Of a stretch of DNA of 64,000 bases, positions 26,004 through 43,088 are shown one piece after another (position 1 is the stretch's first letter; each line of letters opens with the position of its first letter). Made by a program: the position numbers and the translations under genes. The notes under the pieces are model-generated. The model ran no database searches. It saw nothing but the letters and a program-made list of their open reading frames with translations, and was not told the origin of the DNA. Origin of the DNA: Candidatus Binatia bacterium. GTDB taxonomy: Bacteria; Desulfobacterota; Binatia; Bin18. The stretch is taken from contig OY761159.2 in NCBI GenBank assembly GCA_963664395.2, forward strand, positions 1,536,001-1,600,000. Reading direction: 5' to 3'.

Positions 26004-26038
26004 GCAGGCGTTGAGCGACGACACAGAAGGAGGGTGTG

Positions 26039-27394: not shown

Positions 27395-27404
27395 GAAAAA
27401 AGCG

Positions 27405-27441
27405 GGCCTCAGACGCCTGCCTTGGTCACGCGTCTGAGGCC
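27405..27441. terminator. Hairpin between convergent genes
   Basis: GGCCTCAGACGC...GCGTCTGAGGCC, preceded by an A-run. Confidence 0.75.
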
Positions 27442-27445
27442 GTTC

Positions 27446-29623
27446 TCAAAATCGGTAGGTGTAGCGTACCTTGAAGCGGCCCTCGCGGCCGATGGAGCGG
27501 AAGCCGCTCTCCTCGGCGTCCAGCCAGCGCTGGTTGAAGACCAGAAATATGTCATTGCCCGGTTCGATGATCCAGCGGATGCGCGTGCTGAGGCTGAACA
27601 CGTCCGACACGTTGTCATACTGGATCAGGCTGAACCAGGACAGGTTGGGGTTGACGGCCACATCCAGCCGCAGCCGCAACAGCCGCACGATGAAGTTGCC
27701 TTCGGGCAGCCGGACATCGTTCTGTTGGTATTCAGGGCTCAGGAACAGCCGCGGGCCGGGCTGGAAATTGAGACGCAGTATCCAGCTCTCCCGCCTGCCG
27801 CTGTAATAGTCGCCCCAGTAGTGGGCCAGACTGGCCGACAGTTTGCGTTTATCCGCGGTCTCGGCCTGGGCCATATAGCGGCGGAAGGTGTAGCGGTCGG
27901 GCGCCAGGCTGACGCCACGGCTGATCTCAAAATCTTCGGTCAGACGTTCAAACTGCTGCCAGGTCCGAAACATGAGCGTATCGCCGCTCTCAAAGCGCCA
28001 CTCGCAGGGAAAAACGATATTACGGGTGAGGAGTTGGTTCGTAGCCTGGTCGGTAATATAATTGCCGTCAAAGGCGCACGCGACTTGCCGCGTGCTCCGG
28101 TGCTTGGGACGGGGCGCCGCCTGGACGAACCAGCCAAACCGCCGAATGCCCGTACGCGGCACAAAGCCCAGGCTGGCTTCAAAATCCCGTTGCACCTCGC
28201 GATAGGTACCGAATATATTCCACGTATCGTTGGGAAGATTGATCTGACCACCCCAGGCCCAGTTCTTGCGCGCTGTCGGACGAAAACTCTTTAACACAAA
28301 CGAAGAGACGGTGAGATTTCTCGTTCCCAGAAACCTGGTTGTTTTATACAGGAAGTCGTGTCCGTACAGGCCGCTCGCGTCCCCGTTCTCCGGTGTCCGA
28401 CGGGTCGCGATCAGGCCCAGCGACGCCTGTTCCCCGAGGTCGCGCTTGAGCCGGACCACGCTGAAATTCTCGCCCGGTACGGGATCGCGTTCCTGGGTCT
28501 GGGCGCTGAGTATCCCCAGGGAATACTTGCCAACCCGGCCGCTGAGTTTCGCGCCGCCGATCAGATCAACCGGTTTGCCGTCGTCGGCAATACCGACGCG
28601 CCGGCTGAAAAATGGAATAATCACCAACGGACCCGAGGTCGGGGTCAGTCCGTCAACCGCAAAATTGGGCGCGTCCTCCAGAAAGAACTGCCGCTTTTCG
28701 GGAAAGAAGAGTGAAAATCGCGTCAGGTTGACCTGGGCGTCGTCCGTCTCGGCTTCGGAAAAATCGGTATTGAGCGTCAGGCTGAGTGTCAGGCCGGGGC
28801 TGGGTTTGTAGAACAGGTCAAAACCCGGCTTAAAGGACGCGGCATCGCGGCGCACCTCGGTGGTCAGAAAAGGCGAAAAATCGATCCCCAGGCCCTGGGA
28901 CCTACCGTGCAGTCCGGTGAGTTGGCCGGCGCGCGAGACCCGGTTGAAGTTCAGGTTCTGGAGGTAGCCGCTCCAGACCGTTTCTTCGTTCACCCGCTTG
29001 ATGATGCGCTGGACGTTGAAGCCCCAGCTTGATTGTCCCGGGGCATAGCTCAGGGTCTGAAACGGAATTTCAAATTCCGCGCTCCAGCCGCTCGGCGAGC
29101 GCGCGGTCTTCACGTTCCAGATGCCGTTCCAGTCCCGGTTTTCGGTCTCACCCTCGTCGCCGATGAGTTCATCCACTCGCGCGCCAACCGAGTTGGTTTG
29201 AAATTTGAACGCATTGCGATGATCCGAAAACGTATCGAACAAAAGCGTCACCCGATCGTCGGCGGCCAGATCCGCGTCCCGGTTGAAGCGGGTGGCAACC
29301 GCCGCACTCACGTCCGAGTCGTGACAGCGCACCCCGACGTAGAGATGGGTCGCCGTGTACAGGACGCGCACCTCGGTCGGCTGGGAGGCCGGGGCGCCTT
29401 CGTCAGGTTCGCGTTGGCGGAAGTCGTCGCCGACCGGCGCACTTTGCCAGGCCGGCTCGTTCAGCCGACCGTCGAGGATAATGGACTGGGGAATCCGCAC
29501 GGCCTGCAACGCGACCGGAGCCAGCACCGAGACCTCCATATCCTCAAGGGGAATGGGCTGGAGGGTACGCCTGGCCGGCGACGCTGGCGTATCGGCCGCG
29601 GCCGTGGCGGTCAGCGCCAGCAC
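27446..29623 (-). CDS. CBM9-like + DUF5916 outer membrane protein
   Basis: LDGRLNEPAW, FRQREPDEGAPA, NTDFSEAETD, FFPEKRQFFLE; C-terminal YTYRF; true start may be nearer 29662. Confidence 0.85.
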   Translation of the reverse strand: MLALTATAAADTPASPARRTLQPIPLEDMEVSVLAPVALQAVRIPQSIILDGRLNEPAWQSAPVGDDFRQREPDEGAPASQPTEVRVLYTATHLYVGVRCHDSDVSAAVATRFNRDADLAADDRVTLLFDTFSDHRNAFKFQTNSVGARVDELIGDEGETENRDWNGIWNVKTARSPSGWSAEFEIPFQTLSYAPGQSSWGFNVQRIIKRVNEETVWSGYLQNLNFNRVSRAGQLTGLHGRSQGLGIDFSPFLTTEVRRDAASFKPGFDLFYKPSPGLTLSLTLNTDFSEAETDDAQVNLTRFSLFFPEKRQFFLEDAPNFAVDGLTPTSGPLVIIPFFSRRVGIADDGKPVDLIGGAKLSGRVGKYSLGILSAQTQERDPVPGENFSVVRLKRDLGEQASLGLIATRRTPENGDASGLYGHDFLYKTTRFLGTRNLTVSSFVLKSFRPTARKNWAWGGQINLPNDTWNIFGTYREVQRDFEASLGFVPRTGIRRFGWFVQAAPRPKHRSTRQVACAFDGNYITDQATNQLLTRNIVFPCEWRFESGDTLMFRTWQQFERLTEDFEISRGVSLAPDRYTFRRYMAQAETADKRKLSASLAHYWGDYYSGRRESWILRLNFQPGPRLFLSPEYQQNDVRLPEGNFIVRLLRLRLDVAVNPNLSWFSLIQYDNVSDVFSLSTRIRWIIEPGNDIFLVFNQRWLDAEESGFRSIGREGRFKVRYTYRF

Positions 29624-32697: not shown

Positions 32698-32719
32698 GGG
32701 CGAGGGCGGTCGGCCCTAC
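32694..32719. repeat. GTAG-type REP-like palindrome
   Basis: GTAGGGGCGA...TCGGCCCTAC overlapping the stop codon. Confidence 0.55.
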
Positions 32720-32911
32720 TGTCGCCTCGCGCCGGTAACGGTACGATATTGGTATACGGGAACAACTCCGTCTTCCGTCCCAGCCGGCGGTGGTTCCCCT
32801 ATTCAAAGCCCATCGTGTTTTTTTCTCTATCTCTCATAGTTGCCGACGGTAGAGACTATCCGCAGCCTCATTGTGTCAAGTGCCCTGTTCCCAGGGTAGT
32901 GTCTCCCTTCC

Positions 32912-33735
32912 GCGCTTCCAAGCCGCTCCGCAGGACGCCCGCCCGCCCCCACTGCTGGAAGCGGCGCTGGCACGTCTGGTAGGGAGGAAGCCGCTCCGGT
33001 CAGTCCTGCCCCCGCGCCCCAGAGCGGAGAATCCACAAAATCCCACTGTGTCGTAATTTCCTCCCATTTTGGAGGCGACAGGAGCGGCCGGACTGTGTAA
33101 GGATTCACAGCGAAGCACTACCCTGCCCATACCCCTCCACTCCTGCTCGGGAGGCGCGTCTCGGGCGGCGGGCTGACTTCTCCAGGGCTATGGTCTATTT
33201 TTCGGCGCTTTGTCGGCGGCGAGTGATGCCGCATTAACAGTCCGGTCCGGCGAGACCGGGGTGCCGAGGGGCACGTAAGGGAGAGACGATGGTACACGAT
33301 CAGCGAATCCAGCGTGGGGCGGCCCCTTTTTCAAGGTGCAAGGCTGAAGGGGGCCGGGGCGGCTGGTCCGTTGGCGGGCTGGGGGTGGTGCTGTTCCTGC
33401 TGGCGGCCTTCGTGGTTCCCTCTAGCGGAGTAGAGGGGGAGCCGCGGGGGGTGGTCGAGAATCCGGGGGCCAACTCGTATCAGAGTGGCCTCGGCCTCAT
33501 TTCGGGCTGGGTGTGTGAGGCCGACTTAGTGGAGATTGAGATTGGGGACTTTCTGCCGCAAGCGGCTGCGTATGGCACCGAGCGAATGGACACGGCCGGG
33601 GTGTGTGGGGACGCGGACAACGGCTTTGGCTTACTCTTCAACTGGAACCTGCTGGGGGCCGGCGAGCATACGGTACGGGTGCTGGCCGATGGGGAAGAGG
33701 TTGGGCAAGCGACCTTCACGGTGACGACGCTGGAC
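32912..33735 (+). repeat. Duplicated upstream region + 5' coding block, copy 1 (partner 37497-38215)
   Basis: Near-identical sequence at offset 4585, then 4480 after a 105-nt indel. Confidence 0.92.
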
Positions 33736-36700
33736 GCGGAGTTTCTGAGCGGGGCTGAGGGGGAATGTGTGGCCGAGGACTTCCCGGCGATGGGCCGGAC
33801 CGTGACCTTGGAATGGCAACAGACCAGTCAGAATTTTGTGATCGCGGGCGGGAGTGCCCCGGCAAGGGCTCACACCGGCACCCGGCCGAGTGGTCTGACG
33901 GGGTATCTGGAGAATCCGGGGGCCAATTCGTATCAGAGTGGCATCGGAGTGATTTCGGGCTGGGTGTGTGACGCCGACACAGTCGAGATTGAAATTGGGA
34001 CCACCGGGCGGCAGGCGGCCGCGTATGGGACCGAGCGGCTCGATACGGAGTCGATGTGTGGCGATATGGACAATGGCTTTGGGTTGTTGTTCAACTGGAA
34101 TCTGTTGGGCGAGGGCGAGCATGAGGTGGTGGCATGGGTGGATGGCCTTGAGTTGGGGCGGGCCACGGTGCGGGTGACGACGCTGGGGGCGGAGTTTCTG
34201 CGGGATGTGGAGGGGGCATGTATGGTCGAGGACTTCCCGGATATGGGACAGACCGTGACCTTGGAATGGCAACAGAATAGTCAGAACTTCGTGATTGCCG
34301 GGTATGAGGCGGTGGACGAGGGCGGCACGCCGTCCGAGGAGCCGCGCGGGTCGGCAACGGGAGGCGGGTCGGCAACGGGAGGCGGGTCGGCAACGGGAGG
34401 CGGGTCATCGGCGTCGGAGGGCAGGTCGTCAACGGGGGACAGTTCTTCGTCGTCCGGGGGGTCAGGTCAGTCGTCTGAGGAGAATACGCCGACTCCGTCA
34501 AGCGGGTCATCGTCCGGGAGTGAGACCACCACGACCGATGAGGAGGACGGGTCATCTGAGGAGGACGGGTCATCTGAGGAGGACGGGTCGGCGTCCGGGA
34601 AAGGGAGTGAGACCACCACGACCGATGATTCGTCGGTCGCTATCGAATCTCAGGGGGTATTGCTGCCCGTCACACCGACCTACGGCACGGTCGCCCCGGC
34701 GGGAGATGAGAGCTGGTGGGCGGTGGATTTAGGGGCGGATGGAGAATATCTGTTTGAGGTAAAGCCGGGGGGCGCGGACCCCTTGGCCGACCCGCACCTG
34801 GTCGGGCTCTATAACGAGGAGAGGCAGCTAATGGAGGGCACGGGGGCCGCCCCTGCGGGGGCGCGCACTCAAGCCATACTCACGGTCAAGGAGTGGGGGC
34901 GGTACTATATTGCGGTGGGTAGTCGGAGCGGGGAGCAGACTGGCAGCTATGAACTCGCGATGTATGTCATCACGCCGCCGTCGCGAGTCTCGTCGCCCGA
35001 TGATTTTCCGAGGGACACGAGCACCACGGGACGCCTGGTGGTCGGGCAGGAGGTGACAGGGGAGCTTAGCACCTCACCCATCGTGGACGATGACTGGTTT
35101 GGGGTGGATCTGGAGCGGGGCTACGAGTACACGTTCGAGGTGCGGGGTGGGGACACGATGCCGGCCGAGTTTGCGACGGTGAGACGGCTGTCAGACGAGC
35201 AGGGGCGATTCATCGGGATTACGAATACGAACTTTAATCGCCCCCGGCTGGTTTTCACAGCCCGGCGGACGGGGCGCTATTATGTTGAGGTCACCTCGAT
35301 CGCCACCTCGATAACAGCGGCTCTGCGGGACACCGGCGGCAGCTACGTGTTGACGGTGACGGCCAAGGCGGTGACGTTGTCCTCAGTGCCGGAGCCGGAC
35401 GATGACTATGGGGAGGCGACGGATGCCACGACAGCACAACTCTTGGTAGGGGGGACGGTGACGGGGATAGTCAACTATATGAACGACCTGACCTATGGGT
35501 ACGATCGGGATGTGTTTGCCCTGGAGTTGGTGGCGGGTCAGACCTATCGGATGGATATACAGCGAACCAGCGGCACCTACTGGAGACCCGACCTGGAGGG
35601 GATTCATGATGCCTCCGGCACGCTGATTCCCGACACGGCGGAGGCGGACTATCTTGTGTCAGGCGCCTGGCGCCTGTGGTTCAAGGCGACCACGACCGGC
35701 ACACATTATATCGCGGTGAGCGGCACCGCCAGCTCACATTCCGGGGGACAAGTGCACGGTTATCGGCTGTCGGTTGTGGCCATGGAGCTATCCGACGACT
35801 ACGCCGCCGACACCACGACGACGGGGCGGGTTGCGGTGGGCGGTTCGGTGACAGGCAGCTTTGAGCGAGCACGGGATGAGGACTGGTTTGCGGTGGAGCT
35901 GGAGGCCGGCACGGACTATCAGATCAATCTGAAGAAAGACCCCTATGATACCGACCCCCGCTTAGTCGGGGTCTACGATGCACAGGGTACCCGGCTGCCC
36001 CACGTCACGAGAGATGAAGGGGTCCCATACGGGAACCAGTATGGGAGGTATGGGCGCCTGTATGTGACGCCGGCCGAGGCGGAGACGTATTACATTGCCG
36101 TCCGCAGTCACTATGACGAATACGAGTACGAAGTGGAGGTGGTTGAATATACCGGGGAGTTGGCGGACCTCCCGACGGATACGAGCACGCCGAAGCGGGT
36201 TGAGGTCGGGACTGAAAGCTCGGTGACGGGCAGTATTGACCCCATTTTCTTATACGATAAATCAAGCAGCGACGCGGATTGGTGGGCGGTGGAGTTCGTG
36301 GCGGGTCAGACCTATCGGATTGAGGTGAAGACGGGGGGGTGGAGCGGGTATTGGGGTTGGCGTTCGTGGGCTGCCTTCCTGCCGGGGGTTTACAATGCGC
36401 AGGGCACCCGGATTGCCGACACGGCGGGGCCGGATTACCGCCTCAGTCATTTCCACCGCCGTCGGTGGTTCACCGCGACCACGACCGGCCCGCATTATAT
36501 CGCGGTGAGGGGCTGGCTCGATGTCCTACATCCCGGGGCCGGCCCAAGCCCGGCTCATTATAGGCTATCGGTCGTGGCGGATACGCTGCCCGCCGACGAC
36601 TATCCGGCCGACACCACGACCACGGGGCAGGTGACGGTGGGGGGGACGGTGAAGGGCCAAACTGAGCATCCGGGGGATGTGGACTGGTTTGCGGTGAAGT

Positions 36701-37281
36701 TGGAGGCCGCTGTCATCTACCGGATTGAGCTGAAGCGCCAGCCGGATCCTCTGGACCCTGTCCTGACAGGGGTTTACACAGACGAGGGGACCCTGCTGCC
36801 CGGCACCACGGATGACGATGGGGGCCGCAACGGGACGCGGGTGTATGTGACGCCGTCCGTATCGGGGAAGTATTACATTGGCGCTCGCGGGGATGGGGGA
36901 GATGGGGAATATGAGCTGGGGGTGTATATCGCTGACAAGGCGGACGACTTTGCCCCTGACACCACCACGACGGGGAGAGTCACGGTGGGGGGCTCGGTCA
37001 CGGGCGAGATTGAAGCGGCCGACGACCTGGATTTGTTTGCGGTGGAGCTCACTGCCGGAACGACTTACCGGATAGAGATGGAGGGTAGCGCCACGAGCCA
37101 GGGTACACTGACGAGTCCACTGCTAGGTAGTATCTTTAACAGTAGGGGCAAGGTGATCGGCGGCGTGGGCAGAACCGCCGGGGACTGGACGGCTTCGTAT
37201 ACCGGGACCCATTACATCATGGTTGAGGCCGCTTATCAGAGGACCGGGACCTACCGACTGTCGGTGACGGAGCAGGAGTAG
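33289..37281 (+). CDS. Large secreted protein: long signal peptide, two copies of a Cys-containing domain, Ser/Gly/Glu linker, seven PPC-like repeats
   Basis: ENPGANSYQSG..ISGWVC...NGFGLLFNWN x2; repeats DDY.ADTTTTG.V.VGG..TG...D.DWFAV.L.AG..Y.I...YYIA...Y.LSV. Confidence 0.85.
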   Translation: MVHDQRIQRGAAPFSRCKAEGGRGGWSVGGLGVVLFLLAAFVVPSSGVEGEPRGVVENPGANSYQSGLGLISGWVCEADLVEIEIGDFLPQAAAYGTERMDTAGVCGDADNGFGLLFNWNLLGAGEHTVRVLADGEEVGQATFTVTTLDAEFLSGAEGECVAEDFPAMGRTVTLEWQQTSQNFVIAGGSAPARAHTGTRPSGLTGYLENPGANSYQSGIGVISGWVCDADTVEIEIGTTGRQAAAYGTERLDTESMCGDMDNGFGLLFNWNLLGEGEHEVVAWVDGLELGRATVRVTTLGAEFLRDVEGACMVEDFPDMGQTVTLEWQQNSQNFVIAGYEAVDEGGTPSEEPRGSATGGGSATGGGSATGGGSSASEGRSSTGDSSSSSGGSGQSSEENTPTPSSGSSSGSETTTTDEEDGSSEEDGSSEEDGSASGKGSETTTTDDSSVAIESQGVLLPVTPTYGTVAPAGDESWWAVDLGADGEYLFEVKPGGADPLADPHLVGLYNEERQLMEGTGAAPAGARTQAILTVKEWGRYYIAVGSRSGEQTGSYELAMYVITPPSRVSSPDDFPRDTSTTGRLVVGQEVTGELSTSPIVDDDWFGVDLERGYEYTFEVRGGDTMPAEFATVRRLSDEQGRFIGITNTNFNRPRLVFTARRTGRYYVEVTSIATSITAALRDTGGSYVLTVTAKAVTLSSVPEPDDDYGEATDATTAQLLVGGTVTGIVNYMNDLTYGYDRDVFALELVAGQTYRMDIQRTSGTYWRPDLEGIHDASGTLIPDTAEADYLVSGAWRLWFKATTTGTHYIAVSGTASSHSGGQVHGYRLSVVAMELSDDYAADTTTTGRVAVGGSVTGSFERARDEDWFAVELEAGTDYQINLKKDPYDTDPRLVGVYDAQGTRLPHVTRDEGVPYGNQYGRYGRLYVTPAEAETYYIAVRSHYDEYEYEVEVVEYTGELADLPTDTSTPKRVEVGTESSVTGSIDPIFLYDKSSSDADWWAVEFVAGQTYRIEVKTGGWSGYWGWRSWAAFLPGVYNAQGTRIADTAGPDYRLSHFHRRRWFTATTTGPHYIAVRGWLDVLHPGAGPSPAHYRLSVVADTLPADDYPADTTTTGQVTVGGTVKGQTEHPGDVDWFAVKLEAAVIYRIELKRQPDPLDPVLTGVYTDEGTLLPGTTDDDGGRNGTRVYVTPSVSGKYYIGARGDGGDGEYELGVYIADKADDFAPDTTTTGRVTVGGSVTGEIEAADDLDLFAVELTAGTTYRIEMEGSATSQGTLTSPLLGSIFNSRGKVIGGVGRTAGDWTASYTGTHYIMVEAAYQRTGTYRLSVTEQE

Positions 37282-37496
37282 GGCGGGGAAGGGGGACCGG
37301 CGCCCCCATACAGAAGCGGAGACAGGCACGGGGCGGGAGGATTGTCACAGTGAAGGACCCCGAGCCGTGGTCTCATAAAGAGCAGCGGCGCAAGAGAAGG
37401 CTACAGCCCCGTCCGTTTTTTTCGCCCCGATGAAGGGGGCATCGCTGAAACACTCGCTGAGGTCCACCTCGCCCCGCGTCCGTACCTCCTCGGCCA

Positions 37497-38215
37497 GCGC
37501 CTCCAAGACGCCCCGCAGGACGCCCGCCCGCCCCCACTGCTGGAAGCGGCAAGGGCAGGTCTGGTAGGGGGGAAACCGCTCCGGTCAGTCCTGCCCCCGC
37601 GCCCCAGAGCGGAGAATCCACAAAATCCCACCGTGTGGTGATTTCCTCCCATTTTGGAGGCGCCAGGAGCGACCGGATTGTGTAGTGTTTTGCTGGCGGC
37701 GGGTGATGCCGCATCAACAGTCTGGTCCGGCGAGACCGGGGTGCCGAGGGGCACGTAAGGGAGAGATGATGGTACACGATCAGCGAATCCAGCGCAGGGC
37801 GGCTTCTTTTTCAAGGTGCAAGGCTGAAGGGGGCCGAGGCGGCTGGTCCGTTGGCGGGCTGGGGGCGGTGCTGTTCCTGCTGGCGGCCTTCGTGGTGCCC
37901 TCTAGCGGCGTAGACGGGGAGCCGCGGGGGATGGTCGAGAATCCGGGGCCCAACTCGTATCAGAGTGGGATTGGGGTGATCTCGGGCTGGGTGTGTGCGG
38001 CGGAGGCGGTGGAGATTGAGATTGGGGACTTTCTGCCGCAAGCGGCTGCGTATGGCACCGAGCGAATGGACACGGCCGGGGTGTGTGGGGACGCGGACAA
38101 CGGCTTTGGCTTACTCTTCAACTGGAACCTGCTGGGGGCCGGCGAGCATACGGTACGGGTGCTGGCCGATGGGGAAGAGGTCGGGCAGGCGACCTTCACG
38201 GTGACCACGCTGGGA
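37497..38215 (+). repeat. Duplicated upstream region + 5' coding block, copy 2
   Basis: Matches 32912-33735. Confidence 0.92.
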
Positions 38216-41200
38216 GAGGAGTTTGTCCGGGGGGCGGAGGGGCGGGTCAGGGTTGAGGACTTTCCGAGTACGGGGGAAGCCGTGCAATTAGTGTGGCAAG
38301 AAAGTTTACAGAACTTCGTGCTCGCCACGGGGGCCGCGCCCGCCGGGGTGAACCGCGCCGGGGTAGCGGGCGTAGGGTATCTGGAGAATCCGGGGGCCAA
38401 TTCGTATCAGAGTGGGATTGGGGTGATCTCGGGCTGGGTGTGTGCGGCCGACTTAGTGGAGATTGAGCTCAATGGTGCCCGCCAGCCGGCGGCGTATGGG
38501 ACAGAGCGGGCGGACACCGAGAGTGTGTGTGGGGATACGGCTAACGGGTATGGCGTCTTGGTGAACTGGAACGAGTTCGGGGACGGGGCGCACACGGTAC
38601 GGGTGCTGGCCGATGGGGAAGAGGTTGGGCAGGCGACCTTCACGGTGACCACGCTGGGAGAGGAGTTTGTCCGGGGGGCGGAGGGGCGGGTCAGGGTTGA
38701 GGACTTTCCGAGTACGGGGGAGCAGGTCCGGCTGAGATGGCAAGAAAGTTTACAGAACTTCGTGATTGCCGGGTATGAGGCGGTGGACGAGGGCGGCACG
38801 CCGTCCGAGGAGCCGCGCGGGTCGGCAACGGGAGGCGGGTCGGCAACGGGAGGCGGGTCATCGGCGTCGGGGGGCGGGTCATCGGCGTCGGAGGGCAGGT
38901 CGTCAACGGGGGACAGTTCTTCGTCGTCCGGGGGGTCAGGTCAGTCGTCTGAGGAGAATACGCCGACTCCGTCAAGCGGGTCATCGTCCGGGAGTGAGAC
39001 CACCACGACCGATGAGGAGGACGGGTCATCTGAGGAGGACGGGTCATCTGAGGAGGACGGGTCATCTGAGGAGGACGGGTCATCGTCTGAGGAGAATACC
39101 CCGACTACACGTTCGAGGGCAGAGCAGCAGAGTGCATTGCAGAGTGTCTCCGAGCCGGCGGACGCCGACCTGCCGGCCGATACCAGTACTTCCGGGCGGG
39201 TAGTGGTGGGCGAGACTGCCACCGGCACCATCGCCGTGGTGGGCGACCGGGACTGGTTTGCGGTCACGCTCGAAGCCAGGACCGTCTACCGAATCGACCT
39301 GGAGGGCGTGGCCACGAGCCAGGGGACCCTGTCCGCACCCTGGCTGTCCGGGGTCCACGATGCGCAGGGTATTCTGCTGGACGACACCTCGGACTATTAC
39401 TTTACCGAGTCGCCTAACAGCCGGGTATTCTTCACGCCCCAGACTAGCGGCAAGTACCACGTCGCTGCGGGGGGAGACATTGGCTATAGGAATGTGGGCA
39501 CCTATCGGCTGGCGGTGAGTGAATTTCCAGACGACTATGCGGCCGATAGGACCACGACCGGGACGGTCAGTGTGGCCGGGAGCACCACCGGCAGGGTTGA
39601 TTTTCCGAATGACCGGGACTGGTTTGCGGTCACGCTCACCGCCGGGACCGTCTACCGAATCGACCTGGAGGGCGTAGCCACGAGCCAGGGGACCCTGCCC
39701 CAACCCTTGCTGGACGGGGTCCACGATGCACAGGGTATCCGGCAGGGCGGCACCGGGGGCCATTACGGTGCCGTGTCTGACGGCCAGGTATTCTTCACGC
39801 CCCAGACTAGCGGCAAGTACTACGTCGCTGCGGGGGGAGTCGTTGGCTACAGAAATGTGGGCACCTATCGGCTGGCGGTGAGTGAATTTCCAGAAGACTA
39901 TGTGGCCGATAGGACCACGACCGGGACGGTCAGTGTGGCCGGGAGCACCACCGGCAAGGTTGATTTTCCGGGCGACCGGGACTGGTTTGCGGTCACGCTC
40001 AAAGCCGGGACACCCTACTGGATTGGTACGACAGCGCAGAGAGGCTATCCTGTCCGGTACGGGGTGCATGACGCGGACGGCAACCTGATTGCCAATACCG
40101 CGGATGATAACAGTGGCAGGGACTGGGGAATCTGGGTGCTCTTTACGCCGCAGACTGACGGGCCCTATTACATCGTCACCGGGGGCAGTTATAACAGCGA
40201 CTACAGACTGACGGTGATGGACGCGACCGATGATTATGCAGCGAATACGGGTACCACCGGCACGGTGACGTTGGGGAGCGTGAAAAGAGGGGAGATCGAT
40301 CAGCCGGGTGACCGGGACTGGTTTGCGGTCACGCTACGCGCCCAGCGGACGTACCAGATCGACTTGCAGACCGACTTGCGGGTCCCTGTGAACCGTGTAA
40401 CCAATACCCGCCCCGATCCCTATCTGTACGGGCTGTATGACACGAACGGTGACCGGATTGCCAATACCGAGGATGATGCCAGGGTGATTTTTACGCCGGA
40501 GACGGCCGGGAAGTACTACATTGAGGTCGGGGAGGTCGGGACCGGGATTGGCGCCTACCGGCTCACCGTAGTCCAGCAGGACCTGCCGGCTGATATACAT
40601 ACCCCGGCCACGATTGCGGTCGGTGGGTCGACCACCGACTCGACGGATGGCCCCACCGATGTGGACTGGTTCAAGGTCACCCTGGTGGCGGACACGTACT
40701 ATCAGATTGATCTGAAGAGGACTGTTGGAGGAACGCTTCGTGATCCCTCTCTGCGCGGGGTGTATGACATGAACGGTACCCTGATTGCCAATACCGCGGA
40801 TGATGACAGTGGCGAGTGGTCCAATAGCGTCGTGTTCTTCAAGCCCTCGGCTGACGGAATCTACTACATTGCTGCCGGCAGCGCTCGCGGCGGCGGCTAC
40901 CGGCTGAGCGTGCGTGCCGTGCCCGCAGATGACTACACGGCCGATATCAGTACCACTGCCACGGTCAGTGTAGGCGGCTCAGCCACTGGCCAGCTCGAAG
41001 TGCCAGATGACAGGGACTGGTTCCGGGTTACCCTCACCGCCGGGACCACCTACCAGATTGACCAGGTTCACCAGGATGGTTATCGGAGGTGGAAGTTATG
41101 GGGGATTTATGACGCGACCGGCAATCTGATCCCCAATACCCAGGATAATAACGCTCACTTCAAGAGCCGGGTGTTCTTCACGCCCTCAACCACCGGTCCT

Positions 41201-41707
41201 CACTATATTGCCGCCGGCGCCACCGGGAAGTTCGTTGACCACACTCCCATAACCACCAACATACTAGTGGACTACAATGCCGCCCTCCACGTCGGCGGCT
41301 ACCGGCTGAGTGTGAATATCATTACGGATGACTACACGGCCGATGCGACTACCACTGCCACGGTCAGTGTAGGAGGCGCCCCAGTCATTGGCCGGATCGA
41401 AGTGCCGGGCGACGTGGACTGGTGGGCGGTGGAGCTCACTGCCGGGACAAGCTACCGAATTGACCAGAAGAAGCGTGAATATTCGCTTAATCCCTACCTG
41501 CGCGGGATTCATGACTCGTCCGGGATTCTGATCCCCAACACCACGAACGATAACGGGGGCGAGCCGGACAACATTTTTCTCCGGAGCTACAACAGCATAG
41601 TGTACTTTACGCCCTCAAACACCGATACTTACTATATTGCCGCCGGCGCCAACGGCAGTAATCCATACAAAATCGGCTCCTACTCGCTGTCGGTGAAGGT
41701 GCAGTGA
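37769..41707 (+). CDS. Paralogous large secreted protein with the same N-terminal module and a different set of seven PPC-like repeats
   Basis: Same MVHDQRIQR start and SD as the 33289 gene; repeats with DRDWFAVTL. Confidence 0.85.
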   Translation: MVHDQRIQRRAASFSRCKAEGGRGGWSVGGLGAVLFLLAAFVVPSSGVDGEPRGMVENPGPNSYQSGIGVISGWVCAAEAVEIEIGDFLPQAAAYGTERMDTAGVCGDADNGFGLLFNWNLLGAGEHTVRVLADGEEVGQATFTVTTLGEEFVRGAEGRVRVEDFPSTGEAVQLVWQESLQNFVLATGAAPAGVNRAGVAGVGYLENPGANSYQSGIGVISGWVCAADLVEIELNGARQPAAYGTERADTESVCGDTANGYGVLVNWNEFGDGAHTVRVLADGEEVGQATFTVTTLGEEFVRGAEGRVRVEDFPSTGEQVRLRWQESLQNFVIAGYEAVDEGGTPSEEPRGSATGGGSATGGGSSASGGGSSASEGRSSTGDSSSSSGGSGQSSEENTPTPSSGSSSGSETTTTDEEDGSSEEDGSSEEDGSSEEDGSSSEENTPTTRSRAEQQSALQSVSEPADADLPADTSTSGRVVVGETATGTIAVVGDRDWFAVTLEARTVYRIDLEGVATSQGTLSAPWLSGVHDAQGILLDDTSDYYFTESPNSRVFFTPQTSGKYHVAAGGDIGYRNVGTYRLAVSEFPDDYAADRTTTGTVSVAGSTTGRVDFPNDRDWFAVTLTAGTVYRIDLEGVATSQGTLPQPLLDGVHDAQGIRQGGTGGHYGAVSDGQVFFTPQTSGKYYVAAGGVVGYRNVGTYRLAVSEFPEDYVADRTTTGTVSVAGSTTGKVDFPGDRDWFAVTLKAGTPYWIGTTAQRGYPVRYGVHDADGNLIANTADDNSGRDWGIWVLFTPQTDGPYYIVTGGSYNSDYRLTVMDATDDYAANTGTTGTVTLGSVKRGEIDQPGDRDWFAVTLRAQRTYQIDLQTDLRVPVNRVTNTRPDPYLYGLYDTNGDRIANTEDDARVIFTPETAGKYYIEVGEVGTGIGAYRLTVVQQDLPADIHTPATIAVGGSTTDSTDGPTDVDWFKVTLVADTYYQIDLKRTVGGTLRDPSLRGVYDMNGTLIANTADDDSGEWSNSVVFFKPSADGIYYIAAGSARGGGYRLSVRAVPADDYTADISTTATVSVGGSATGQLEVPDDRDWFRVTLTAGTTYQIDQVHQDGYRRWKLWGIYDATGNLIPNTQDNNAHFKSRVFFTPSTTGPHYIAAGATGKFVDHTPITTNILVDYNAALHVGGYRLSVNIITDDYTADATTTATVSVGGAPVIGRIEVPGDVDWWAVELTAGTSYRIDQKKREYSLNPYLRGIHDSSGILIPNTTNDNGGEPDNIFLRSYNSIVYFTPSNTDTYYIAAGANGSNPYKIGSYSLSVKVQ

Positions 41708-41828
41708 GACGGGTGTGAATGCAGCAGGGAAACGTCAGGCCACTGCGGGCCCGCTGCGCGGGCGTCCGCAGCAGGAGGGAGGGATAATGCCTACAGGCAG
41801 GTCAGTTGGAGGCACCCTATGACTTGCG

Positions 41829-43088
41829 TTAGAGCTTGCCTGCCGCTCGCAGCTCTTTGACCTGCGCCTCTTGTACCAGTGCACCGTCTGCATACAACGC
41901 GGCGACCTGCTCTTCCGAATAGGCCAGCTGCTCCTGCAATACCTCTTCATTATGTTCGCCCAGGAAGGCGGCCCGAAAGGGGATCTCGACGTTCGCATTA
42001 GAAAAATGAAACGGCGATTTGGCAATCGGGGTTGAGCCGAGCAGCGGGTGGGGTACGTCTTGAAACAGTCCGCGGGCTTTCAATTGCGGATGCGCCGCGG
42101 CGCCGGGAATATCCAATATCGGAGCGGATGGCACCCGGGCTTCGGCCAGAATTTTCAGTGGCGTGTCGTCGTCCTCAAACGTCTGGAGCCAGTCTTCAAT
42201 ATATTTACGAACCTCTGTACTCCGCTGTATACGACCCTCCATTGTGGCGTAGCGTTCGTCCGTCGTCAGTTCCGGCTTGCCCATCGCCTGGGTAAGGGCT
42301 GGCCATTGGTGACCGGCGACGGCAAAAACGAGATAGCCTTTTTTTGCCTTGTACACGCCATAGGGACATATATTAAAAAAGTCTCCACCAAAACGATGCG
42401 GCACAATGGAGCCTTGACTCATCATAAAAAGCGGGAAGTTGACGTAGTCCAGGTAGACCAGAGATTCGAGCTGCGACACGTCAATATACTGGCCCACCCC
42501 ACTGGTGGCGCGGTGAAAGAGCGCGGCACAGATTGCGAGGGCACCATGAATACCCGCATTCGGGTCACCAAAATAGTTGCCAACATAGGTCGGTGGCCCA
42601 TCCGGTTCACCCGTCATGGCCATCACCCCACTCTGGGCCTGAGCGATAATGTCAAAGCTGGTATGGCTGGCGTATGGCCCATCCTGCCCATAGCCTGACA
42701 CCGAGCACATGATCAGTTTGGCGTTCAGCTCTTTGAGGGTGTCATAATCCAGTCCGTGCCGGGCCATGACCCCAGGACTGTAATTTTCAACAACAACGTC
42801 AGCCTTGCGCACCAGTTTATGGACGATTTCCTTTCCCTTCGGGTGCTTGATCTCAACACAGAGACTTTTCTTGCCGGCGCAGGCTGCGAGATAGAGCGCA
42901 CTTTGGCCATGCTCAACAAGATGGATCTGACGTCCCAGATCACCGCCGGGCGCGCGTTCAATCTTGATCACATCCGCCCCAAGGTCGGCCAGAATCCGGG
43001 TCGCAGATGGGCCGGCGAGATATTGGGTAAAGTCGAGAACCGTGATGCCGGACAGAAGTTTCTGGGGGCCCTTCGTATTGTCAGCCAT
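41829..43088 (-). CDS. CoA-transferase family III (CaiB/BaiF)
   Basis: VLDFTQYLAGP, LADLGADVIKIE, ADVVVENYSPG, SGYGQDGP, LGEHNEEVL. Confidence 0.95.
   Translation of the reverse strand: MADNTKGPQKLLSGITVLDFTQYLAGPSATRILADLGADVIKIERAPGGDLGRQIHLVEHGQSALYLAACAGKKSLCVEIKHPKGKEIVHKLVRKADVVVENYSPGVMARHGLDYDTLKELNAKLIMCSVSGYGQDGPYASHTSFDIIAQAQSGVMAMTGEPDGPPTYVGNYFGDPNAGIHGALAICAALFHRATSGVGQYIDVSQLESLVYLDYVNFPLFMMSQGSIVPHRFGGDFFNICPYGVYKAKKGYLVFAVAGHQWPALTQAMGKPELTTDERYATMEGRIQRSTEVRKYIEDWLQTFEDDDTPLKILAEARVPSAPILDIPGAAAHPQLKARGLFQDVPHPLLGSTPIAKSPFHFSNANVEIPFRAAFLGEHNEEVLQEQLAYSEEQVAALYADGALVQEAQVKELRAAGKL

What the first reader, a model, noticed from the sequence alone, without database searches (positions are those of the whole stretch)
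34630..41707. Fourteen PPC-like repeats with a fixed framework and four hypervariable, aromatic-rich loops: an antibody-like surface repertoire?
Seen: each large protein carries seven ~110-140-aa repeats. Framework motifs are kept (DDY.ADT.TT, V.VGG..TG, D.DWF.V.L.AG..Y.I, G.YD..G..I..T, F.P...G.YYIA, Y.L.V), and length and sequence variation concentrates at four fixed positions. Loop 1 precedes DWF (NYMNDLTYGY, DPIFLYDKSSS). Loop 2 follows Y.I (KTGGWSGYWGWRSWAA, QVHQDGYRRWK, TDLRVPVNRVTNTR). Loop 3 follows G..I..T (EGVPYGNQYGRY, DYRLSHFHRRR, GGEPDNIFLRSY). Loop 4 follows YYIA (GWLDVLHPGAGPSPAH, GKFVDHTPITTNILVDYNAALHV). No two repeats are identical and many loops are rich in Tyr/Trp/Gly/Arg, as binding paratopes are. 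Known: PPC domains are beta-sandwiches normally appended to peptidases, yet no catalytic domain is recognisable here. Inference: a multivalent, diversified ligand-binding display system (adhesion, host recognition or decoy).
Basis: partly seen in the sequence, partly recalled or inferred. Interest (0 to 1): 0.8.

Follow-up and report, generated by a model that had tools for sequence, protein, structure and literature searches.

The report
Loop-diversified PPC repeat surface proteins
Two neighbouring genes of an uncultured sponge-associated bacterium encode secreted proteins, each with seven collagenase-type binding domains whose loops at one end differ strongly from repeat to repeat but are fixed in the genome, so they look like hard-wired adhesins and not an antibody-like variable system.

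Summary
Genes A (33289-37281) and B (37769-41707) each encode a signal peptide, two Big_7-like Ig modules, an acidic Ser/Gly/Glu linker and seven PPC (PF04151) repeats. The framework is conserved, and sequence and length variation sits at four fixed loop positions.

By strand topology the four loops share one pole of a collagenase CBD-like beta-sandwich. No model coordinates were available to measure this.

The loops are unusually diverse. Among 255 homologous PPC arrays, this subgroup has the lowest loop-to-framework identity ratio (0.24-0.30; next lowest 0.42; median 0.69). It has lost loop motifs that are conserved elsewhere.

The antibody-like reading fails on mechanism:
- No template repeat lies near any of the three reverse transcriptases, so this is not a DGR.
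- Contigs from three other studies carry the same genes at 97-100% identity with no gaps in the long pieces.
- Strain-level changes are not concentrated in loops.
- Positional orthologues keep some loops.

One recent internal duplication shows a nonsynonymous-only burst in loop 3 (15 to 0).

The pair is a 9.1-kb island absent from 27 congeners. Standalone PPC arrays are very common (20,262 cluster representatives).

Verdict: a germline-diversified variant of a known but uncharacterised adhesin-like family. The ligand is unknown.

The parts
32718..41829 (.). 9.1-kb island holding genes A and B, inserted between an enoyl-CoA hydratase gene and a family III CoA-transferase gene
   Evidence: Homology to congener G018 stops at 32717 and resumes at 41830. 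In 12 congeners the two flanking genes lie 32-35 nt apart. G+C is 63-65% and GC skew 0.17-0.22, against 56-60% in the flanks.
32912..33288 (+). 5' region shared only by A, B and paralogue C (likely promoter or 5' UTR); A carries an extra ~109 nt at 33100-33208
   Evidence: blastn against the whole genome finds 92-94% copies only upstream of B (37497-37768) and C.
33289..37281 (+). Gene A, 1330 aa (P0001)
   Evidence: ORF and translation; Pfam PPC.
33289..33447 (+). A: N-terminal leader with a hydrophobic segment (putative Sec signal peptide or signal anchor)
   Evidence: Read from the translation. Orthologue-like P0070 and P0080 begin with a classical signal peptide. Inference; no predictor was run.
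33448..34320 (+). A: two copies of a ~140-aa two-Cys module (33448-33900 and 33901-34320), Big_7-like Ig
   Evidence: Direct repeat with 453-nt spacing. No Pfam or NCBIfam hit. Atlas neighbours carry PF17957 Big_7, score 0.97/0.93. The module is shared by 22 places in the own genome and 23 of 24 congeners.
34321..34650 (+). A: low-complexity Ser/Gly/Thr/Glu linker with 18-nt repeats (EEDGSS)
   Evidence: Translation; repeat family D9.
34651..34965 (+). PPC repeat A1 (aa 455-559, degenerate, lacks the N-terminal DDY motif)
34966..35361 (+). PPC repeat A2 (aa 560-691)
   Evidence: positional orthologue of C1
35362..35778 (+). PPC repeat A3 (aa 692-830), with an L1 insertion conserved in orthologues
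35779..36144 (+). PPC repeat A4 (aa 831-952)
   Evidence: best Pfam stretch 863-940
36145..36576 (+). PPC repeat A5 (aa 953-1096), all four loops elaborate; this repeat was modelled
   Evidence: AF2 model with pLDDT 76.5 and pTM 0.74; PPC/CBD fold
36577..36927 (+). PPC repeat A6 (aa 1097-1213)
36928..37269 (+). PPC repeat A7 (aa 1214-1327), keeps the canonical loop 2
37769..41707 (+). Gene B. The ORF opens at GTG 37685 (P0002 numbering), but the ATG at 37769 is homologous to the starts of A and C.
37928..38789 (+). B: two Big_7-like modules (37928-38374 and 38375-38789)
38790..39127 (+). B: Ser/Gly/Glu linker; the copy number of its 18-nt unit varies between samples
   Evidence: indels at 39046-39065 (table 4)
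39128..39520 (+). PPC repeat B1 (canonical loop 2)
39521..39883 (+). PPC repeat B2 (canonical loop 2). It is a recent duplicate of B1 except for loop 3.
39884..40219 (+). PPC repeat B3
40220..40573 (+). PPC repeat B4
40574..40915 (+). PPC repeat B5
   Evidence: best Pfam stretch 992-1063
40916..41317 (+). PPC repeat B6 (loop 4 carries by far the longest insertion of the 20 repeats)
41318..41698 (+). PPC repeat B7; the protein ends 3 residues later, with no C-terminal sorting signal
   Evidence: NCBIfam T9SS tail only 13 bits against a cut-off of 23
39365..39424 (+). Loop 3 hot spot inside the recent tandem duplication 39245-39660 / 39611-40023
   Evidence: 18-22 of 30 nt identical here against 27-30 of 30 elsewhere. 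There are 15 nonsynonymous and 0 synonymous differences; dN is 0.68 against dS 0.10 in the rest.

Best explanation
A and B, with a third paralogue C 1 Mb away, are exported, non-enzymatic, adhesin-like proteins of a sponge-associated Candidatus Binatia bacterium.

Each has four parts:
- a Sec-type leader;
- a pair of Big_7-like Ig modules that this genus attaches to dozens of exported proteins (a common handle, probably for surface or matrix attachment);
- a flexible acidic linker;
- a string of seven Ca2+-type PPC beta-sandwiches of the collagenase collagen-binding-domain fold.

The four variable segments are the alternate inter-strand connections (beta2-3, beta4-5, beta6-7, beta8-9). They therefore sit together at the pole where the domain's N-terminal acidic segment and the invariant D-x-D motif lie.

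In ordinary arrays of this family, loops 2 and 3 carry conserved Gly/Asp-rich motifs that look like Ca2+-binding turns. In this subfamily most repeats have lost those motifs and carry unrelated loops of varying length that are more aromatic and basic and less acidic.

The diversity arose by ordinary germline evolution: repeat duplication, point substitution, indels and gene conversion. It is fixed within the species.

The most likely function is a hard-wired, multivalent, multi-specific binder of host matrix or surface components (collagen/spongin-like or glycan). Each repeat would offer a different site at its loop pole, on top of whatever the conserved sheet face binds.

Shown: architecture, fold, loop positions, outlier diversity, lack of an active diversification mechanism, stability between samples, island status. 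Inferred: export and surface location, Ca2+ binding, ligand binding by the loops, identity of the ligand.
For: **Architecture and family.**

**Fold.**
- A profile of the 14 repeats hits the ColH collagen-binding domain 3JQW (E 4.9e-5) and the ColG tandem CBD 5IKU (E 0.0066).
- The AF2 model of A5 (pLDDT 76.5, pTM 0.74) matches the B. anthracis collagenase PPC 5SV5 (E 2.8e-5, TMt 0.60), ColG s3b 1NQJ and ColH 3JQW.
- The two-repeat model's best hit is 5IKU (E 1.1e-9).

**Topology.** Strands lie at 26-31, 44-51, 56-63, 75-83, ~88-92 (only residue 89 marked E), 104-110, 115-125 and 137-143. The variable loops fall between alternate pairs.

**Outlier diversity.**
- Among 255 arrays with 5 or more repeats, the eight entries of this subgroup hold the eight lowest loop/framework identity ratios (0.24-0.30; next lowest 0.42; median 0.69). 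They lie at the 94th-98th percentile for loop-length spread.
- 138 other arrays with matched framework identity (0.38-0.62) have loop identity 0.18-0.78 (median 0.38). A and C have 0.10-0.12 and B has 0.18.
- Canonical loop motifs are conserved in 2,214 other repeats: G53 91%, G59 86%, L61 89%, P64 85%, G86 79%, N90 72%, S91 74%. They are mostly lost here.

**Selection hint.** Loop 3 of a recent duplicate shows 15 nonsynonymous and 0 synonymous differences (dN 0.68), against dS 0.10 in the rest of the unit.

**Function is maintained.**
- The ORFs are intact.
- The same genes are 97.2-100% identical in contigs from three other studies.
- Positional orthology A2-A7 = C1-C6 = P0070/P0080/P0093/P0105, with some loops kept, for example L1 of the A3 type.

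**Binding precedent.** PPC domains and CBDs of collagenases bind triple-helical collagen, and Ca2+ rigidifies the ColG CBD linker (PMC6168687 and PMC4356367, passages read).

**Habitat.** Runs labelled sponge metagenome hold the stretch.
Against: - No binding was tested and no ligand is known.
- The one-pole placement rests on strand order, not on coordinates. None were available, and the loops have low pLDDT.
- Loop divergence is also what relaxed constraint would give. Across 11 repeat pairs, loop dN is about equal to loop dS.
- Between samples, nonsynonymous changes are not enriched in loops: 7 of 24, with loops 30% of residues.
- Over short distances loops change only about twice as fast as framework: 15.1% against 8.0% for P0070/P0080, and 3.3% against 1.6% for C/P0049.
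- Tyr+Trp enrichment is modest and absent in B. A is at the 96th percentile and B at the 75th.
- The collagen-binding hot spot of ColG lies on conserved aromatic residues (PMC4356367). The idea that these align to framework positions here, not to loops, comes from my reading of the alignment and was not tested.
- Transcription is only hinted at: short RNA-library contigs, with DNA carry-over not excluded.
Confidence: 0.55

Rival explanations
1. Spacer or stalk with unconstrained loops. The PPC string is a Ca2+-stiffened extender that projects or spaces something else. The loops merely drift, perhaps helped by selection against misfolding between identical neighbouring domains. They bind nothing specific.
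For: - Loop dN is about equal to loop dS in 11 repeat pairs.
- There is no loop enrichment of nonsynonymous differences between samples.
- Loops evolve only about 2x faster than framework over short distances.
- Mean total loop length (37.0-37.1 aa in A and B) equals the family median of 37.1, so the loops are not enlarged overall.
- Standalone arrays of up to 33 repeats are common, as expected of extender modules.
- The two-repeat model gives no confident inter-repeat geometry (pTM 0.59).
Against: - There is no terminal functional head for a stalk to carry. The proteins end 3 residues after the last repeat.
- Loss of otherwise conserved loop motifs in nearly all repeats of one subfamily is hard to reconcile with a purely structural role that other arrays fulfil with those motifs.
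- Loop 3 shows a 15:0 nonsynonymous burst at 6.5 times the neutral divergence of its surroundings.
- Some loops are kept across orthologues that are only ~47% identical.
- Tyr+Trp in the loops of A and C is about twice the family median despite 63-65% G+C.
Confidence: 0.27
2. Actively diversifying repertoire (antibody-, DGR-, cassette- or phase-variation-like). Loop sequences are changed within populations by a dedicated mechanism.
For: - Three reverse-transcriptase genes exist in the genome, one about 5.4 kb beyond the window end.
- Gene conversion is active in the family. A and C are 100% identical over ~750 nt of their 5' parts while their arrays are 50-80% identical.
- The 18-nt linker repeat varies in copy number between samples.
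Against: - blastn of both arrays against the whole genome gives 41 hits, all in the A/B locus (35) or the C locus (6). No template repeat lies near any RT.
- Loop differences include many length changes and are not adenine-specific.
- Long contig pieces from X4, X6 and X10 (three studies) cover the arrays at 97.2-100% identity with 0 gaps.
- No silent cassettes were found.
Confidence: 0.03
3. Accessory substrate-binding or Ca2+-binding lattice protein. For example, it could tether separately encoded secreted peptidases to insoluble protein substrate, or form an S-layer-like coat. The loop pole would then serve protein-protein assembly.
For: - PPC domains in proteases act as substrate-binding or maturation modules (PMC6168687, passages read; PMC3327674, abstract in a search listing).
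- 11 of the 120 best homologues listed carry PF01457. I recall this as peptidase M8; the name was not checked.
- Other large PPC-bearing ORFs exist in the genome.
Against: - No peptidase gene lies in the island; the neighbours are CoA-metabolism genes that are adjacent to each other in congeners.
- Nothing suggests self-assembly.
Confidence: 0.12

Closest known systems
Collagen-binding domains (CBD; s3, s3a, s3b) of clostridial collagenases ColG and ColH, a subclass of the PPC superfamily (PDB 1NQD/1NQJ, 3JQW, 5IKU)
   Same: - Same fold and family-level sequence signal.
- Same D-x-D-aromatic motif before beta3 and an acidic N-terminal segment.
- Tandem occurrence.
- A binding role, not a catalytic one.
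   Different: - CBDs come as one to three copies at the C-terminus of an M9 peptidase. Here there are seven copies and no enzyme.
- Only 12-18% identity in structural alignments.
- The tandem orientation differs: TM 0.32-0.35, rmsd 17.7 against 5IKU.
- The CBD hot spot lies on conserved aromatic residues (PMC4356367, passages), whereas the feature of interest here is the loops.
- Collagen and Ca2+ binding were not tested here.
Standalone tandem PPC arrays annotated 'pre-peptidase C-terminal domain-containing protein' or 'Ca2+-binding RTX toxin-like protein' (for example in Cognatishimia, Ruegeria, Rhodovulum; also Binatia, Prochloron and Entotheonella MAGs)
   Same: - Same ~118-aa repeat subtype in long head-to-tail arrays without a catalytic domain in most cases.
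- 592 hits among the scored candidates.
- 20,262 cluster representatives at E<=1e-3, with up to 33 repeats.
- Record titles are listed.
   Different: - Those arrays keep conserved loops 2 and 3 and have a loop/framework identity ratio of 0.42 or more. This subgroup has 0.24-0.30.
- Many are fused to cadherin, Calx-beta, RTX or M8 domains. Here the partner is the Binatia Big_7-like module pair.
Repetitive bacterial surface adhesins with Ig-like extender arrays (RTX adhesins, Bap-like proteins); comparison from general knowledge, not from a call
   Same: Large exported proteins built from tandem beta-sandwich domains with putative Ca2+ stiffening.
   Different: - Extender repeats are usually near-identical and carry a separate ligand-binding region plus a T1SS signal.
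- Here the repeats are 24-45% identical.
- There is no RTX or T1SS C-terminus.
- Export appears to be Sec-dependent.
Diversity-generating retroelement (DGR) variable proteins
   Same: A protein scaffold with variation confined to a ligand-binding surface; RT genes are present in the genome.
   Different: - No TR/VR pair.
- The variation includes indels.
- It is not adenine-directed.
- It is fixed between samples.

Membership tests
[quoted passage not shown] | Match to the family HMM above the curated gathering score | tested here: met
   57.3 bits (A) and 72.7 bits (B) against a cut-off of 25.9.
[quoted passage not shown] | Beta-sandwich fold of solved PPC/CBD domains | tested here: met
   AF2 model of A5 against PDB: 5SV5 E 2.8e-5 (TMt 0.60), 1NQJ_A E 3.1e-4 (TMt 0.63), 3JQW E 3.8e-4. 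The model is of moderate confidence (pLDDT 76.5).
[quoted passage not shown] | Position C-terminal to a secreted peptidase, as the name implies | tested here: not met
   No peptidase domain in A or B and none in the island. This is not required by the Pfam model, and most of the 120 listed homologues also lack one.
Clostridial-type collagen-binding domain (CBD) | Ca2+ chelation by the N-terminal acidic segment plus the D-x-D before beta3 | not testable with these tools
   The motif residues are conserved: D at HMM 7 in 100%, D33 in 100% and D35 in 95% of the 20 own repeats. The identity of the ColG/ColH ligands is recalled, not read. Metal binding was not tested.
Clostridial-type collagen-binding domain (CBD) | Binding of triple-helical collagen through surface aromatic residues | not testable with these tools
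   Conserved Tyr/His at HMM 70 and Tyr at 103/104 align to the ColH strands. Whether they are surface-exposed was not determined.
DGR variable protein | A template repeat ~80-90% identical to the variable region, near a reverse transcriptase, with adenine-specific differences | tested here: not met
   Three RT genes, but all 41 blastn hits of the arrays lie in the A/B or C loci. Substitutions in the duplicate are of mixed type.
Hypervariable (population-level) surface repertoire | Loops differ between strains or samples more than the framework does, with length changes | tested here: not met
   - Long contig pieces from X4, X6 and X10 are 97.2-100% identical with 0 gaps.
- 7 of 24 listed nonsynonymous differences lie in loops, which are 30% of residues.
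- C against P0049: 8 of 240 loop residues and 8 of 511 framework residues differ, with no loop indel.
- Only consensus contigs were examined, and only 40 of 252 differences were listed.
Binatia tandem Big_7-like end-module proteins (unnamed family from earlier scan notes) | A pair of ~140-aa two-Cys Ig-like modules at one end of an exported protein | tested here: met
   - Tandem copies lie at 33448 and 33901, and at 37928 and 38375.
- There are 22 matches in the own genome, and 23 of 24 congeners have matches.
- Atlas neighbours carry Big_7.
- Record titles of relatives read Candidatus Binatia.
- The fold itself was not modelled here.

The most novel reading that the evidence does not exclude
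In a sponge-associated Binatia lineage, a subfamily of PPC arrays has turned the normally conserved Ca2+-type loop pole of each repeat into a distinct binding site under diversifying selection. One genome would then encode a fixed panel of about 20 different paratope-like sites (7 + 7 + 6 repeats) on three co-regulated proteins. This would be a germline, array-encoded alternative to somatic or DGR diversification for recognising varied host matrix or surface ligands. The genes were recently acquired as an island.
Probability: 0.3. Interest if true: 0.6.

Novelty: new variant of a known kind. Interest (0 to 1): 0.42.

Why it matters
Standalone tandem PPC arrays are abundant in marine and host-associated bacteria: 20,262 cluster representatives. 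My three literature searches found no paper on them.

This locus gives a natural contrast within one family. Canonical repeats have conserved loops. A subfamily has the same four loops freed and diversified, with one clean nonsynonymous burst.

If the loops bind ligands, the PPC sandwich would be another small, Ca2+-stabilised scaffold with a four-loop binding pole. That would be useful for understanding how uncultured sponge symbionts attach to collagen-rich host matrix, and possibly as an engineerable binder.

If the loops bind nothing, the locus is an example of how far tandem-domain loops can drift. It is not evidence of an adaptive-immunity-like system in bacteria.

Tried and rejected
- **DGR or cassette mechanism: rejected.** The genome has RT genes but no template-like DNA.
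- **Orthologues in the genus for a loop dN/dS test: none found.** 0 of 27 congeners match the A2-A7 array at E<=1e-30. The nearest relatives (P0070, P0080, P0093, P0105; 46-48% identity) are available only as proteins, so no codon analysis was possible.
- **dN/dS between repeats and between A and C: inconclusive.** Loop dS is inflated or saturated (0.41 to above 3), so loop alignments are unreliable.
- **Rfam scan of the window: no hits.**
- **tRNA scan: none.**
- **NCBIfam: nothing above cut-off.**
- **Weak Pfam rows: ignored as sub-threshold or overlapping PPC.** These were Filamin, DUF6504 and DNA_ligase_A_C, each with 0 stretches passing.
- **Measuring loop positions on the models: not possible.** No coordinates are delivered.
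- **Two-repeat model for inter-repeat geometry: no confident orientation.** pTM was 0.59.
- **Papers on ColG/ColH CBD structure: not held.** These were Bauer 2013 and its PMC id. The Ca2+-ligand residues are therefore recalled only.
- **Literature on standalone PPC arrays or PPC in sponge symbionts: nothing relevant.** (1 paper, a protease survey; 0 papers). Supplements were not available.
- **Joints in laid contigs linking A to B repeats:** they have short sides (21-47 nt) at 85% likeness, so I treat them as paralogue or relative cross-matches.
- **Parts of B1-B3 (39114-39970) have no long contig piece.** Assemblies break at the recent duplication, so nothing can be said there.

Full report
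**1. What is there**

The region holds two large same-strand ORFs: A (33289-37281, 1330 aa) and B (GTG 37685 to 41707). By homology with A and a third paralogue, B most likely starts at the ATG at 37769.

Both proteins have the same plan:
- a leader with one hydrophobic segment;
- two copies of a ~140-aa module with two cysteines;
- a low-complexity Ser/Gly/Thr/Glu linker built partly of 18-nt repeats;
- seven repeats of 105-144 aa.

Pfam assigns the repeats to PPC (PF04151), at 57.3 and 72.7 bits against a cut-off of 25.9. No catalytic family is found.

Anchoring on the D-x-D-W-F and Y-x-L-x-V motifs and aligning gives 7 + 7 repeats.

Entropy and gap profiles put length variation at four places.
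- Loop 1 carries an insertion in only 2 of the 14 window repeats.
- Gly is not enriched in the loops; it is lower than in related arrays.

**2. Fold and where the loops sit**

A profile of the 14 repeats finds the ColH collagen-binding domain (3JQW, E 4.9e-5) and the ColG tandem CBD (5IKU, E 0.0066) among solved structures.

An AlphaFold2 model of repeat A5 (14-row alignment; pLDDT 76.5, pTM 0.74) matches:
- the Bacillus anthracis collagenase PPC domain (5SV5, E 2.8e-5);
- ColG s3b (1NQJ, 1NQD, 2O8O);
- ColH s3.

CBDs are described as a subclass of the PPC superfamily. In them Ca2+ turns the inter-domain linker from helix to strand, and three tyrosines form the collagen-binding hot spot (PMC4356367, passages read). 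A Vibrionaceae collagenase PPC domain also binds triple-helical collagen (PMC6168687, passages read).

In the model the strands are 26-31, 44-51, 56-63, 75-83, about 88-92 (only residue 89 marked E), 104-110, 115-125 and 137-143. The four variable segments are the beta2-3, beta4-5, beta6-7 and beta8-9 connections. The intervening tight turns (A-G, D-x-x-G, T-x-G) are conserved.

In a sandwich whose strands run along one axis, alternate connections lie at the same pole. By topology, then, the four loops cluster at the pole that also holds the invariant D-x-D and receives the N-terminal acidic segment.

This is an inference. The tools deliver no coordinates, and the loops themselves have low confidence.

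A two-repeat model (A4-A5) has pTM 0.59, with the lowest pLDDT in loops 3, 1 and 2. Its best structural match is 5IKU, but in a different orientation (TM 0.32-0.35). No inter-repeat geometry can be claimed.

**3. Is the loop variation more than ordinary?**

Yes, relative to the family.

The family is very large. The repeat profile finds 20,262 cluster representatives at E<=1e-3 and 2,585 at E<=1e-30 among 1.84 billion, with up to 33 repeats in one protein. A word-indexed search with the A array gives 592 hits among 7,997 scored candidates. Some are named "pre-peptidase C-terminal domain-containing protein" or "Ca2+-binding RTX toxin-like protein" in Rhodobacteraceae, and many are fused to cadherin, Calx-beta or RTX domains.

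I extracted 2,262 repeats from 262 proteins. These were the 259 returned by the two searches plus A, B and C. Every repeat was aligned to one HMM built from the 20 own repeats, and each of the 255 arrays with five or more repeats was scored.

| Measure | Median of 255 arrays | A | B | C |
|---|---|---|---|---|
| Framework identity between repeats | 0.59 | 0.43 | 0.58 | 0.46 |
| Loop identity between repeats | 0.41 | 0.10 | 0.18 | 0.12 |
| Loop/framework ratio | 0.69 | 0.24 | 0.30 | 0.25 |
| Summed SD of loop lengths | 4.0 | 11.9 | 13.9 | 12.0 |

- The eight lowest loop/framework ratios all belong to this subgroup: A, B, C, P0049, P0070, P0080, P0093 and P0105. The next lowest ratio is 0.42.
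- The loop-length spreads lie at the 94th-98th percentile.
- Among 138 other arrays with matched framework identity (0.38-0.62), loop identity ranges from 0.18 to 0.78, with a median of 0.38.

The reason is visible in the columns. In 2,214 other repeats, loop 2 reads G-x-x-T-G-x-G-T-L-x-D-P and loop 3 reads D-D-D-G-G-x-G-x-N-S-R, with single positions conserved at 72-91%. By my own recall these Gly/Asp turns resemble RTX-type Ca2+ turns. Among the 20 own repeats only A7, B1, B2 and C6 keep loop 2, and few keep loop 3.

Loops of A are richer in Tyr+Trp (8%, 96th percentile) and Arg (7%, 93rd). They are poorer in Gly (5th) and Asp+Glu (6th). B is less extreme.

One caveat: the HMM comes from the own repeats, so loop identities depend on alignment. 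The length spreads do not.

**4. Is it a repertoire that varies?**

No.

*(a) No DGR.* The genome has three reverse-transcriptase matches, one about 5.4 kb beyond the window. But blastn of both arrays against the whole 5.04-Mb assembly gives 41 hits, all in the A/B locus (35) or the C locus (6). There is no template repeat and no silent cassette.

*(b) The stretch is stable between samples.* It is held by runs of nine studies, some labelled sponge metagenome. I laid contigs of four runs from three studies. The long pieces cover the arrays with few differences and 0 gaps:

| Region | Run | Differences / length (nt) |
|---|---|---|
| 34630-35831 | X4 | 3 / 1202 |
| 35834-37017 | X4 | 25 / 1184 |
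| 35775-37106 | X6 | 37 / 1332 |
| 39971-40980 | X4 | 5 / 1010 |
| 39971-40600 | X10 | 1 / 630 |
| 40595-40948 | X10 | 0 / 354 |

- The only indels listed are one single-base deletion in the A-B spacer (37435), a deletion/insertion pair in an RNA-library contig in B's first Ig module (38075/38081), copy-number changes of the linker repeat (39046-39065), and one compensating pair at 39943/39946. None lies in a variable loop.
- Of the 252 differences, the 40 best supported were listed, and 34 of these lie in the arrays.
- Of those 34, 24 are nonsynonymous and 10 synonymous.
- 7 of the 24 nonsynonymous ones fall in loops, which make up 259 of 871 repeat residues (30%).

Contigs are consensus sequences and drop rare variants, so within-population microdiversity remains untested.

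*(c) Protein-level comparisons agree.*
- P0049, a metagenome fragment, is a near-identical variant of C. It has 16 differences in 751 repeat residues: 8 of 511 in framework and 8 of 240 in loops, with no loop indel.
- The close pair P0070/P0080 differs at 8.0% of framework and 15.1% of loop positions.

Loops therefore change about twice as fast as framework, as surface loops usually do.

**5. How the diversity arose**

A third paralogue, C (own genome, C1:2594611-2598030, 1139 aa, six repeats), and proteins P0070, P0080, P0093 and P0105 share the full architecture. They also show positional orthology: A2-A7 correspond to C1-C6 and so on.

Some loops are kept across this 46-50% identical set. 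The 13-residue loop 1 of the A3 type is an example. Many others are replaced or resized.

Within B, a recent tandem duplication (39245-39660 against 39611-40023) is 27-30 of 30 nt identical everywhere except loop 3. There, 15 comparable codons carry 15 nonsynonymous and 0 synonymous differences plus one 3-nt indel. That gives dN 0.68, against dS 0.10 and dN 0.086 in the other 121 codons.

This is the one clean sign of diversifying selection, or of a very local replacement process.

Across 11 other repeat pairs, loop dN (0.41-1.19) exceeds framework dS in 9 of the 11. But loop dS is equally inflated, so these comparisons cannot separate selection from relaxed constraint or misalignment.

Gene conversion acts on the family:
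- A and C are 100% identical over about 750 nt of their 5' parts, while their arrays are 50-80% identical.
- A against B is a mosaic of 62-100% identity.

**6. Context**

Neighbours are CoA-metabolism genes.

In 12 of 27 congeners, the orthologous hydratase (96-98% identical) and CoA-transferase (91-94%) genes lie 32-35 nt apart. In the remaining congeners the pair could not be compared: there is no close hydratase orthologue, or the genes lie at contig ends.

Alignment to one congener places the boundaries at 32717 and 41830. A and B are thus a 9.1-kb insertion of higher G+C and strong GC skew.

None of the 27 congeners has an A-type array at E<=1e-30.

A 190 + 80-nt upstream segment is shared only by A, B and C.

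The N-terminal module pair has no Pfam or NCBIfam family. It occurs at 22 places in this genome and in 23 of 24 congeners, often at the end of very large ORFs. Its Atlas neighbours carry Big_7. Relatives' record titles read Candidatus Binatia.

Earlier notes of this scan on other genomes describe the same module as an unnamed Ig-like tandem end-module of Binatia exported proteins. I confirmed its spread and its Big_7 likeness, but not its fold.

**7. Reading**

The best-supported account is a fixed, germline-diversified, multivalent adhesin-like protein family. Its divergent loop pole may provide repeat-specific binding sites, most plausibly for host matrix. Confidence is 0.55.

The main rival, at 0.27, is a spacer whose loops simply drift. 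Active diversification is close to excluded (0.03).

Compared with what is known, this is a new variant within the abundant but experimentally unstudied class of standalone PPC arrays. It is not a new kind of system.

**Literature basis**
- Searches found no paper on such arrays.
- Searches were used for context; only listings and abstracts were seen unless passages are named above.
- Supplements were not available.

Noticed in passing
window 32718-41829: Genes A and B form a 9.1-kb insertion between an enoyl-CoA hydratase gene and a CoA-transferase gene. These two genes are only 32-35 nt apart in 12 congeners. No transposase or target duplication was seen at the borders.
   Followed up: yes
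window 33525-34275 and own genome C1:2594611-2595738: The 5' part of gene A is 100% identical over ~750 nt to paralogue C, 1 Mb away, while the PPC arrays are 50-80% identical. A against B is a mosaic of 62-100%. This indicates recent gene conversion confined to the module-encoding 5' ends.
   Followed up: partly
window 34521-34601 and 38995-39093: An 18-nt repeat encoding EEDGSS lies in the linkers, with 3 copies in A and 4-5 in B. Copy-number or indel differences between samples occur at 39046-39065.
   Followed up: partly
window 32912-33099 / 37497-37684 and 33209-33288 / 37689-37768: An upstream segment 92-94% identical is shared only by A, B and C. It is possibly a common promoter or 5' UTR. 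A has an extra ~109 nt in it. There is no Rfam match.
   Followed up: partly
own genome C1:1605405-1605821 (about 5.4 kb beyond the window end): A reverse-transcriptase-like ORF (440 aa frame, RVT_1 36.8 bits) lies here. There are two more RTs elsewhere in the genome. Their type (group II intron, retron, DGR) was not determined; the only finding is that no template matches the PPC arrays.
   Followed up: partly
own genome, 22 places (for example C1:1757963-1758823 in a 4118-aa frame; C1:4726454-4727329 at the end of a 2517-aa frame): The Big_7-like tandem module pair of A and B recurs at either end of many very large ORFs. The 2517-aa one also has PPC domains. Many matches run a few codons past a stop, which suggests C-terminal placement.
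   Followed up: partly
window 35286-35534, 37128-37408, 38896-39078: Short contigs of a sponge metatranscriptome library lie on parts of A, the A-B spacer and the B linker with 0-3 differences. This is a weak hint of transcription; DNA carry-over is not excluded.
   Followed up: no
window 26036-29623: A DUF1329/LolA-like gene (26036-27394) and, on the opposite strand, a CBM9-like plus DUF5916 gene (27446-29623) lie upstream of the island. They were not studied.
   Followed up: no
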